From a virus (lineage: Duplodnaviria; Heunggongvirae; Uroviricota; Caudoviricetes): a stretch of 4,457 nt of DNA. The first letter of the stretch is position 1, and every line of letters starts with the position of its first letter. The notes under the pieces are model-generated. The model was not told the origin of the DNA. It ran no database searches and saw nothing but the letters and a program-made list of their open reading frames with translations. Of the stretch, positions 1,579 to 2,372 are shown piece by piece. A program made the position numbers and the translations under genes. The stretch is from IMG/VR virus record IMGVR_UViG_2778261056_000003. One strand, 5' to 3'.

Positions 1579-2019
1579 ATGAGAGAAGAAAAAATAATAA
1601 CAATCTACACAACGGCGGTAAAACCCGGGCTGGCAATCACTCCTTTTATGACACCAGATCCTATAATAGTGTCGGAAGAATACCCTTGTTCCGGCTCATT
1701 TTACCTAACTGCAATAATGTACTTCGAGCACGAAAAAAAATACACTACCGAACTTGATGTCGTATTCAATGGAGAATCGGTTTTACCTGATATCTCTAGC
1801 AATCAAGAGCAACTGCAAACATTTATGTTTTCTCCTGTCAATGAAAAATATGTTGTGGTTGGCACATATCTTTTCGTTAAAAACATCAAACTTATAGAAA
1901 CAGGAACATATGACATAATTTATCGCATCTTTGAAGACATTGATGGTAATCTTAGCGAAGTTATTGATGAAAAAAAATGCGCTCTTATTTCAACCACCCC
2001 GAACAGAGATAAGGAATGA
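1579..2019 (+). CDS. hypothetical protein, cassette gene A (no recognisable domain; predicted soluble)
   Basis: 146-aa ORF in distinctly AT-rich DNA. SD AAGGAA (1565-1570) lies 8 nt before the ATG. No terminator separates it from cI. Its stop overlaps the start of gene B (ATGA at 2016-2019). Confidence 0.75.
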   Translation: MREEKIITIYTTAVKPGLAITPFMTPDPIIVSEEYPCSGSFYLTAIMYFEHEKKYTTELDVVFNGESVLPDISSNQEQLQTFMFSPVNEKYVVVGTYLFVKNIKLIETGTYDIIYRIFEDIDGNLSEVIDEKKCALISTTPNRDKE

Positions 2020-2372
2020 AACGACATCTGTACGCTGTGCCTCTTGACAGGAGTAAAGTTGATAATTTTCCACATAACCACCATAATGATGAGACATATG
2101 GTGGTGGTAACGGTGGAGGTGGTGACATGTTACAGCGCATAAAAATTCTTGAAGATAAAGTCGCAACCATGGCGACCGACATCGCTGTAATTAAGTCTAA
2201 CTATGCAACATCTGCCAATGTAGAATCTGTTAAAACAGACATAGCTAATGCAAAAGCAGAACTTCACAGCGCAATGAGACTCCAAGCCATGGCTATTATT
2301 GGTTCAGTTCTTGCAGCCGTTGGAACTGGTGTTGGGTTAATAATAAAAATGATGCCATCACTACCTCACTAA
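2016..2372 (+). CDS. small Gly-rich, coiled-coil protein with C-terminal transmembrane anchor, cassette gene B
   Basis: 118-aa ORF coupled to gene A by an ATGA overlap. An alternative in-frame start at 2127 has a strong SD (GGAGG 2115-2119, 7-nt spacer) and would give 81 aa. Heptad-like segment LQRIKILEDKVATMATDIAVIK...; C-terminal hydrophobic helix AMAIIGSVLAAVGTGVGLII (coding about 2286-2354). Followed by an intrinsic terminator. Confidence 0.75.
   Translation: MKRHLYAVPLDRSKVDNFPHNHHNDETYGGGNGGGGDMLQRIKILEDKVATMATDIAVIKSNYATSANVESVKTDIANAKAELHSAMRLQAMAIIGSVLAAVGTGVGLIIKMMPSLPH

What the first reader, a model, noticed from the sequence alone, without database searches (positions are those of the whole stretch)
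1579..2372. AT-rich two-gene cassette in the rexAB-equivalent slot: candidate undescribed prophage exclusion or abortive-infection module
Two translationally coupled genes (ATGA overlap at 2016-2019) sit directly downstream of cI with no intervening terminator, and are closed off by a strong intrinsic terminator at 2383-2410 just before OL/PL. This is the slot lambda uses for rexA-rexB, which is transcribed from PRM in lysogens; in lambdoid phages that slot is variable and tends to carry lysogen-expressed exclusion genes. The cassette is visibly more AT-rich than the flanking cI and N genes (by eye, not computed), which suggests a horizontally acquired moron. Gene A (146 aa) has no motif I recognise and looks soluble. 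Gene B is a small Gly-rich, coiled-coil protein with a single C-terminal transmembrane helix. A cytoplasmic partner plus a small membrane protein, expressed from the repressor operon, is the arrangement expected for a sensor plus membrane effector (RexA/RexB-like logic) without sequence similarity to RexAB.
Basis: partly seen in the sequence, partly recalled or inferred. Interest (0 to 1): 0.85.

Follow-up and report, generated by a model that had tools for sequence, protein, structure and literature searches.

The report
Unstudied prophage two-gene exclusion-type cassette
Just after its repressor gene, this lambda-like prophage carries a conserved but uncharacterised gene pair (a fast-evolving soluble protein plus a small membrane-anchored protein made in two sizes) in the slot where related phages keep anti-phage systems, so it is a good untested candidate for a new phage-exclusion system.

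Summary
Gene A (1579-2019, 146 aa) and gene B (2016-2372, 118 aa) overlap by ATGA. They follow cI with no terminator and end at the hairpin 2383-2404, which is lambda's own terminator after rexB.

The cargo (1558-2382) lies between junction sequences shared with phages that have the same cI. Those phages carry HicABC or HigBAC-type toxin-antitoxin-chaperone systems there, or almost nothing; lambda carries rexAB.

Across 23 distinct cassettes from Enterobacterales, an A-family gene plus a B-family gene always directly follows a prophage repressor. A is predicted to be a cytoplasmic Ig-like beta-sandwich and is hypervariable (median identity 28%). B has a variable N-terminal tail that co-varies with A, a Gly linker, and a conserved helix plus C-terminal transmembrane segment (median 63%).

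New here: B contains a conserved internal promoter-like site, a GGAGG ribosome-binding site and an in-frame ATG at 2127. It probably also makes an 81-aa short form, which matches stand-alone chromosomal homologues.

Neither protein matches Pfam, NCBIfam, PADLOC, RexAB or genuine XhlA. I found no relative in 50,697 phage records, and the cassette is in only 4 of 5,426 complete E. coli genomes.

Sensor-plus-membrane-effector exclusion is the best reading, but it rests only on genomic inference.

The parts
805..1509 (+). cI-type repressor (HTH + Peptidase_S24), first gene of the presumed operon
   Evidence: Pfam Peptidase_S24 3.8e-16; PHROG 4 transcriptional repressor 6e-38
1534..1557 (+). Left junction CCAGTGGCCTGAAGAGACGTTTGG; homology with other prophages ends here
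   Evidence: Identical in mEp506, AU5Stx1 and Stx1a_PV728 (same cI) and in ABWA45 (different cI); sequences diverge immediately after it
1565..1569 (+). AAGGA Shine-Dalgarno-like site 9 nt before the gene A start
   Evidence: Read directly from the sequence
1579..2019 (+). Gene A, 146 aa: predicted cytoplasmic Ig-like beta-sandwich, hypervariable family; proposed specificity or sensor subunit
2016..2372 (+). Gene B long form, 118 aa: variable tail (1-28), Gly linker (29-36), helix (38-90), C-terminal TM (92-110); its start overlaps the stop of A (ATGA)
2059..2087 (+). Promoter-like site inside gene B: -35 TTGATA (2059-2064), 17 nt spacer, -10 CATAAT (2082-2087)
   Evidence: Best-scoring site in the window, 10 of 12. 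TTGA(A/T)N-17-CAT..T sits at the same place in 14 of 24 distinct cassette DNAs; the nucleotides are kept while the encoded residues change (V/I/L-E/D; H-N/T/D).
2115..2119 (+). Internal GGAGG ribosome-binding site, 7 nt before ATG 2127
   Evidence: Codon -4 is GGA in 20 of 21 distinct sequences, against 18 of 81 for the other Gly codons of the linker; Fisher p = 7e-10, not corrected for phylogeny
2127..2372 (+). Predicted short form of B (81 aa, Met38 to the end): helix plus TM module only
   Evidence: The internal codon is ATG in 19 and GTG in 2 of 21. Stand-alone 78-aa chromosomal homologues start exactly here.
2289..2345 (+). Coding region for the single transmembrane segment (residues 92-110, MAIIGSVLAAVGTGVGLII; small-xxx-small motifs)
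   Evidence: Kyte-Doolittle 19-residue mean 2.23. I94, G96 and S97 are invariant; A100, G107 and K111 nearly invariant.
2383..2410 (+). Intrinsic terminator closing the cassette; right junction shared with lambda (tImm position)
2589..2632 (+). OL operator-like repeats (TTTATCAT at 2589 and 2614) and PL-like promoter (2604-2632); this marks the far edge of the slot

Best explanation
This is a mobile accessory cassette that occupies the repressor-to-terminator slot of a lambdoid prophage and is transcribed with cI in lysogens.

It encodes protein A, a cytoplasmic, fast-evolving Ig-like beta-sandwich. It also encodes protein B, a tail-anchored inner-membrane protein whose short N-terminal tail is matched to its own A and whose helix-plus-TM module is conserved. 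Gene B also carries its own embedded promoter, ribosome-binding site and in-frame start. The helix-plus-TM module is therefore probably made separately as an 81-aa short form, in amounts independent of A.

The most likely function is exclusion of other phages. A, held at the membrane by the tail of long B, recognises a component of an infecting phage. It then changes the assembly state of the B helix/TM oligomer, which damages membrane integrity or potential and aborts the infection. The independently made short B would set the threshold or restrain the long form.

Shown here: the anatomy, the slot, the allelic cargo, the pairing, the modular co-variation, and the nucleotide-level conservation of the nested start signals. 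Inferred: transcription from PRM, A binding to the B tail, membrane insertion, oligomerisation, the phage trigger, and the abortive outcome.
For: Slot and operon. There is no terminator between cI and A, and a strong terminator follows B. In one homologous cassette the repressor, A and B genes all overlap (L022). The right junction is lambda's post-rexB terminator. The cassette lies upstream of OL/PL and nutL, so PL cannot transcribe it.

Allelic cargo. At identical junctions, phages with the same cI carry HicA/B/C (mEp506), a HigB/HigA/SecB-like trio (Stx1a_PV728) or almost nothing (AU5Stx1). Published work calls this a variable defence locus and a hotspot that holds rexAB and bstA.

Pairing. 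40 of 44 B-family ORFs in the loci I held are preceded by an A-superfamily ORF. Every A-B pair checked follows an S24-type or CI-type repressor, in Escherichia, Salmonella, Enterobacter, Serratia, Citrobacter, Leclercia, Klebsiella and Pantoea.

Modular evolution. Median pairwise identity is 28% for A, 31% for the B tail and 63% for the B C-terminal module. A identity correlates with tail identity (rho 0.29, p 4e-6) but not with the C-terminal module (rho 0.02). For example, L018 and L020 have A at 23-28% identity to the window but the B module at 95%.

Nested expression signals.

Compartment. A has no signal peptide or TM segment, and B has a single C-terminal TM segment, so A and the B tail are both cytoplasmic.
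Against: There is no functional, transcriptomic or proteomic evidence of any kind. PADLOC has no hit, and no paper I could search describes the pair.

The Ig-like fold of A is generic and says nothing about what it binds. The B model has low confidence as a whole (pTM 0.30).

A hotspot location is suggestive, not proof; such slots also carry non-defence morons. Stand-alone short-B homologues in core chromosomal context show the module need not be a toxin. The statistics on codons and correlations are not corrected for shared ancestry.
Confidence: 0.5

Rival explanations
1. Non-abortive superinfection exclusion at DNA entry. The membrane-tethered A-B complex sits at the cytoplasmic face of the inner membrane and blocks genome injection by specific phages, as SieA, Sim or HK97 gp15 do, without killing the cell.
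For: Same slot, same lysogen-operon logic and same hypervariable specificity subunit. B is membrane-anchored.
Against: B exposes only about 7 residues to the periplasm, and A is cytoplasmic. Known injection blockers usually act in the membrane or periplasm. There is no similarity to any Sie-type family in Pfam or PADLOC.
Confidence: 0.15
2. Lysogenic-conversion cargo unrelated to phage defence. A membrane-tethered Ig-like protein modifies host physiology (stress tolerance, envelope or ribosome association, in the manner of the tail-anchored ElaB/YqjD proteins) to the benefit of the lysogen.
For: Stand-alone short-B homologues are ordinary chromosomal genes between a DUF903 lipoprotein gene and TerC/mutH. 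The architecture (helix plus C-terminal anchor) resembles tail-anchored housekeeping proteins; this resemblance is from my own knowledge and was not tested.
Against: The extreme diversification of A, with a matched B tail, is hard to explain by a host-directed function. The strict linkage to repressor genes and the allelism with toxin-antitoxin-chaperone systems and rexAB also argue against it.
Confidence: 0.15
3. Addiction or toxin-antitoxin-like module. The B membrane module is a toxin and A (or long B) is its antidote, stabilising the prophage; any phage effect is secondary.
For: Two small, translationally coupled genes. One product is a small membrane protein with small-xxx-small motifs. 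The slot holds toxin-antitoxin-chaperone systems in sister phages.
Against: Short B exists alone in chromosomes without a partner. The hypervariability is in A, not in a toxin-antitoxin interface alone. No toxin-antitoxin family hit was found. This rival overlaps mechanistically with the abortive-infection reading.
Confidence: 0.1
4. Lysis-related function (XhlA-like holin accessory) used in the prophage's own lytic cycle.
For: Some homologues are labelled 'hemolysin XhlA' by NCBI or UniRef. There is a weak PHROG 'hemolysin' hit, E = 0.16. The architecture is similar.
Against: Pfam XhlA is matched by only 3 of 44 family members, best E = 0.42. hhalign against a genuine XhlA (SPP1 gp24.1, Pfam XhlA 3.9e-14) gives 0.5% probability. 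The gene lies in the repressor operon upstream of PL, not in a lysis cassette.
Confidence: 0.03

Closest known systems
Lambda RexA/RexB exclusion system
   Same: Exactly the same slot: after cI and before the same terminator sequence and OL/PL. Two genes, a cytoplasmic protein then a membrane protein. The second gene also appears to have its own promoter inside the upstream coding sequence; lambda's pLit inside rexA, which transcribes rexB alone, is the parallel (my own knowledge).
HigBAC / HicABC toxin-antitoxin-chaperone systems of lambdoid prophages
   Same: Allelic cargo at identical left and right junctions in phages with the same cI. HigBAC from this locus has been shown experimentally to defend against phages.
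   Different: Unrelated proteins and mechanism: an RNase toxin, an antitoxin and a SecB-like chaperone, against an Ig-like protein and a tail-anchored membrane protein.
BstA of Salmonella prophage BTP1
   Same: Encoded directly downstream of the prophage repressor and highly expressed in lysogens; an abortive-infection system (PMC8585504).
   Different: BstA is a single large DNA-binding protein with a DNA-based self-immunity element. There is no similarity to A or B.
P22/lambda SieB-Esc and holin/antiholin dual-start genes
   Same: One gene yields a full-length membrane protein and an N-terminally shorter in-frame product that modulates it (my own knowledge: Ranade and Poteete 1993 for sieB/esc; lambda S107/S105). 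Here the evidence is a conserved GGAGG-N7-ATG plus an upstream promoter.
   Different: No sequence relationship (no Pfam hit). Production of two products was not shown here. The relative roles of the long and short forms are unknown.
XhlA (PBSX; SPP1 gp24.1), Pfam PF10779
   Same: A small protein with a cytoplasmic helix and one C-terminal TM segment. The name has been applied to some homologues.
   Different: No detectable homology, and not in a lysis cassette.
Ig-like AGS-C sensor domain of Pycsar/CBASS cyclases (PDB 9ard)

Membership tests
RexAB | RexA-family and RexB-family protein sequences | tested here: not met
   BLASTP of A against RexA and B against RexB finds nothing significant. 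There are no Pfam hits.
RexAB | Located between cI and the terminator before OL/PL, in the repressor operon | tested here: met
RexAB | Polytopic membrane channel partner | tested here: not met
   B has a single hydrophobic segment, residues 92-110
RexAB | Excludes phages by loss of membrane potential on infection | not testable with these tools
   Needs infection and membrane-potential assays
XhlA (PF10779) | Match to the family profile at the gathering score | tested here: not met
   The window protein has no hit. 3 of 44 relatives match, best E = 0.42. hhalign against SPP1 gp24.1 gives 0.5% probability.
XhlA (PF10779) | Encoded in a lysis cassette next to a holin and an endolysin | tested here: not met
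   The neighbours are cI and OL/PL
Known anti-phage defence systems (PADLOC-DB v2.0.0) | Match to any model of a known or candidate defence protein | tested here: not met
   0 families for A and for B at E up to 10
Prophage moron / accessory cassette | Discrete unit bounded by conserved junctions, with alternative cargo in related phages and its own terminator | tested here: met
Prophage moron / accessory cassette | Base composition differs from the flanking phage genes | tested here: met
   Cargo 38.3% GC (A 36.3, B 41.5) against cI 44.7 and N 48.7
Prophage moron / accessory cassette | Expressed in the lysogen | not testable with these tools
   Inferred only from the operon structure
Dual-start membrane protein genes (SieB/Esc, S107/S105 type) | A conserved internal in-frame start with its own ribosome-binding site | tested here: met
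   GGAGG-N7-ATG/GTG in 20 of 21 distinct sequences
Dual-start membrane protein genes (SieB/Esc, S107/S105 type) | Two protein products actually made, with opposing activities | not testable with these tools
   Needs a western blot or ribosome profiling, and genetics

The most novel reading that the evidence does not exclude
A-B is a previously undescribed family of prophage abortive-infection systems. A hypervariable Ig-like sensor is docked, through a co-evolving peptide tail, onto a tail-anchored membrane effector. That effector is made in two nested isoforms from separate promoters, giving built-in threshold control or self-immunity. The sensor-plus-tail module and the effector module are shuffled independently at the Gly-linker.
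Probability: 0.3. Interest if true: 0.72.

Novelty: new variant of a known kind. Interest (0 to 1): 0.58.

Why it matters
The cI-to-PL slot of lambdoid phages holds rexAB, one of the oldest and still unexplained exclusion systems, and it also holds BstA and toxin-antitoxin-chaperone systems.

This pair would add a new protein family to that slot. The family has about 59 clusters at 50% identity and is restricted to Enterobacterales prophages. It has no relative among 50,697 phage records (GenBank/INPHARED).

Its layout is unusually easy to read: a variable sensor, a matching tail, a conserved membrane module and a nested short form. That layout predicts simple experiments, namely swapping sensor-plus-tail modules to change specificity and silencing the internal start with synonymous changes. 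These could show how a minimal membrane-acting exclusion system is switched on and kept in check. Rex has not answered that question in sixty years.

The analysis also shows that conserved 'protein motifs' in the B tail (V-E-Q and P-H-N) are really promoter hexamers. That is a warning for anyone annotating such genes.

Tried and rejected
**Family and defence-library scans.** Pfam, NCBIfam and PADLOC scans of A and B gave nothing usable. PHROGs gave only unknown-function families: phrog_6324 at 1e-11 for B and phrog_5893 at 0.002 for A.

**XhlA.** The label on some homologues was tested and rejected.

**RexA/RexB.** Similarity was rejected.

**Other searches.**
- Rfam scan of the window: no hit.
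- tblastn of A and B against 50,697 phage records: no match.
- Literature searches by accession, by slot and by XhlA found no description of the pair.
- The Brenes and Laub 2025 paper on E. coli prophage defences is not held, so prior description there cannot be excluded.
- The Tai tail-assembly-inhibition systems were checked and are not relevant to this slot.

**Coiled coil.** The heptad count for B is weak, so I describe a long helix rather than a proven coiled coil.

Full report
**1. What is in the window**

The window is the immunity region of a lambdoid prophage, read in the leftward-operon direction. Its features are:
- cII, 20-319 (-), Pfam Phage_CII 1e-33
- a cro-like gene, 458-691 (-)
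- cI, 805-1509 (+), Peptidase_S24
- gene A, 1579-2019 (+), 146 aa
- gene B, 2016-2372 (+), 118 aa
- a terminator at 2383-2404 with a T-run
- OL/PL
- N, 2977-3360 (+), Pfam N_peptide 2e-15

The ATGA overlap at 2016-2019 is real. The 69-nt gap between cI and A has no terminator-like site and folds no better than shuffled sequence (z = +1.19). The hairpin after B is -14.6 kcal/mol (z = -3.4) and is followed by UUUUCUUU.

The operator-like motif TTTATCAT occurs at 703 and 754 (OR) and at 2589 and 2614 (OL), 5 hits against 0.38 expected. Identical boxB-like hairpins, CGCTGACAAAGCG, lie at 406-418 (-) and 2702-2714 (+), against 0 expected. A-B therefore lies upstream of PL and outside the PL operon. 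It can only be read from the cI side or from a promoter of its own.

GC content is 36.3% for A and 41.5% for B, against 44.7% for cI and 48.7% for N. The AT-richness is real but is mostly in A.

**2. It is a discrete cassette in the true rexAB slot**

Megablast of 1510-2420 finds the whole cassette in only 4 of 5,426 complete E. coli genomes (ECONIH5 at 100%, ABWA45, Br_190_kylling, C 236-04A) and in none of 50,697 phage records. Hundreds of genomes and phages match only the two ends.

The right end, from 2383 on, is the terminator that lies under the end of rexB in lambda. The left end is a 24-nt junction, CCAGTGGCCTGAAGAGACGTTTGG (1534-1557). After it, related phages diverge completely.

Phages with the same cI and N carry different cargo between these junctions:
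- mEp506: HicA, HicB and HicC
- Stx1a_PV728: a HigB-like, a HigA-like and a SecB-like ORF
- AU5Stx1: only a 47-aa ORF
- lambda: rexA-rexB

ABWA45 has the same cassette behind a different cI and cro. Published work describes this locus as a hotspot of mosaic diversity that holds rexAB and bstA (PMC8585504). [quoted passage not shown]

**3. The pair recurs as a unit, always behind a repressor**

Homology searches found 27 clusters for A and 68 for B. A profile search of 1.84 billion representative proteins found only 59 A-family clusters, nearly all single-domain proteins of 142-153 aa.

I looked up the context for A homologues from Salmonella, Enterobacter and E. coli. I did the same for B homologues from Serratia, Citrobacter, Enterobacter, Leclercia, Klebsiella aerogenes and Pantoea, and added 15 IMG/VR loci.

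In every case with a long-form B, the order is repressor, then an A-like gene of 136-154 aa, then the B-like gene, all on one strand. The repressor is either S24-type or a short CI/RacR-type HTH protein. Gaps are short or the genes overlap; in L022 all three genes overlap.

Of 44 B-family ORFs in the held loci, 40 are preceded by an ORF that matches an A-superfamily profile, with E from 1e-5 to 1e-64.

The exceptions are informative:
- Three are 78-aa stand-alone chromosomal genes between a DUF903 gene and TerC/mutH.
- Two (L035, L043) pair a B-like gene with a different small protein with two CxxC motifs (phrog_4293), inside tail or baseplate gene clusters.

**4. The proteins**

B has four parts:
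- a disordered tail (residues 1-35)
- a Gly-rich linker
- helices at 36-64 and 66-112
- one hydrophobic segment at 92-110, with conserved small-xxx-small positions and only about 7 residues after it

B is therefore tail-anchored, and its tail is in the same compartment as A.

The 'hemolysin XhlA' label on some homologues does not survive testing. Pfam XhlA is matched by only 3 of 44 relatives, best E = 0.42. hhalign against a genuine XhlA gives 0.5% probability. A and B show no similarity to RexA or RexB.

**5. Modular evolution**

Over 253 pairs of 23 distinct cassettes, median identity is 28% for A, 31% for the B tail and 63% for the B C-terminal module. A identity tracks tail identity (Spearman 0.29, p 4e-6) but not the C-terminal module (0.02, p 0.7).

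Some cassettes have A at 23-28% identity to the window but the B module at 95% (L018, L020). Others have the window's tail joined to an unrelated helix/TM module (P0071, L011).

The unit 'A plus B tail' and the unit 'B helix plus TM' are therefore separate evolutionary modules, joined at the Gly linker. This is the pattern expected of a diversifying specificity subunit with a matched docking peptide and a conserved effector. The p-values are not corrected for shared ancestry.

**6. A nested short form of B (new observation)**

Met38 of B (ATG 2127) is nearly invariant in the family and is the start codon of the stand-alone 78-aa homologues.

In 21 distinct B-gene DNA sequences, the Gly codon four codons upstream of it is GGA in 20 and GGG in 1. 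That creates GGAGG exactly 7 nt before the ATG. Among the other 81 Gly codons of the same linkers, only 18 are GGA (Fisher p = 7e-10). The internal codon is ATG in 19 sequences and GTG in 2, and never a non-start codon.

Further upstream, the best promoter-like site of the whole window (TTGATA-17-CATAAT, 2059-2087, 10 of 12) is conserved in position. It appears as TTGA(A/T)N-17-CAT(A/G)(A/C)T in 14 of 24 distinct cassette DNAs from at least eight A subtypes, and five more keep a -10-like hexamer.

The nucleotides are kept while the encoded residues change. V, I or L is always encoded as NTT, followed by GAA or GAT. H-N, H-T or H-D is always CAT followed by a codon ending in T. The constraint is therefore on the DNA, not on the protein.

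By contrast, the long-form start has only a poorly spaced AAGGA and depends on coupling to A.

I infer three products: A and long B in coupled amounts from the repressor transcript, and short B (81 aa) from its own promoter and a strong RBS. Known parallels, from my own knowledge, are lambda's pLit promoter inside rexA that transcribes rexB alone, the SieB/Esc nested pair of P22, and holin/antiholin dual starts.

**7. Mechanism and rivals**

The best-supported reading is a lysogen-expressed phage-exclusion module. A is the specificity or sensor subunit, tethered to the membrane by the tail of long B. The B helix/TM oligomer is the effector. Short B sets the threshold. I give this about 0.5 overall, and about 0.3 for the specific abortive, membrane-damaging version.

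Rivals:
- a non-abortive block of DNA entry (0.15)
- a host-directed conversion function (0.15)
- an addiction or toxin-antitoxin-like module (0.1)
- a lysis accessory role (0.03)

Nothing here measures expression, toxicity or protection.

**8. Novelty**

Putting an accessory defence cassette in the repressor operon is a well-known arrangement. The two protein families, the tail-matched modular design and the nested promoter, RBS and start are not described in any library or paper I could search.

I rate it a new variant of a known kind, of moderate to good interest, mainly because its layout makes sharp and inexpensive experimental predictions.

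Noticed in passing
window 1534-1557 and 2383-2420: The cargo is flanked by conserved junction sequences. 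The left one is a 24-mer shared even by a prophage with a different cI. The right one is the lambda-type terminator. They look like the recombination linkers that let cargo be swapped in this slot.
   Followed up: yes
window 406-418 (-) and 2702-2714 (+): Two identical boxB-like hairpins, CGCTGACAAAGCG (0 expected by chance), sit where nutR and nutL should be for the N protein at 2977-3360. I did not compare them with known nut sites.
   Followed up: partly
window 703, 754, 2589, 2614: The operator-like motif TTTATCAT is repeated in the OR and OL regions (5 hits against 0.38 expected). It is likely the core of this cI's operators.
   Followed up: partly
L001 9468-9851 (= window 2977-3360) and L002: RefSeq/PGAP does not call the N gene in ECONIH5 or ABWA45. 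Only a 69-nt 'regulator' pseudogene fragment is annotated inside it, although the ORF is intact and matches Pfam N_peptide.
   Followed up: no
L035 2658-3366; L043 2513-3261: A B-like gene is paired with a different small partner (119-126 aa, two CxxC motifs, phrog_4293), inserted inside tail or baseplate gene clusters and not next to a repressor. The B membrane module is therefore reused with another partner type.
   Followed up: partly
L015-L017 4001-4237: 78-aa stand-alone homologues of the B short form are ordinary chromosomal genes between a DUF903 lipoprotein gene and TerC/mutH in Escherichia sp. ESNIH1 and Pseudescherichia-like genomes. Their start has its own GGAG-type RBS.
   Followed up: partly
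window 2640-2976: An unusually GC-rich stretch (54-56%) of about 340 nt lies between PL and the N start, much richer than the rest of the window (43%). It contains the nutL-like hairpin. No Rfam family matched.
   Followed up: no
window 3585-3614 and 3930-3965: The sequence 'ttttggcagcaaaccacttatttgaggtgatat' / 'ttttcgcagcaaaccacttatttgagagctgatac' is repeated upstream of two small ORFs downstream of N. It may be a repeated translation-initiation or regulatory region. I did not examine it.
   Followed up: no
NZ_CP109924.1 (H34), E. coli C 236-04A: In this genome the match covers only query positions 170-911, and the A homologue is a 122-aa N-terminally shortened protein (P0003). This may be a decaying copy of the cassette.
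   Followed up: no
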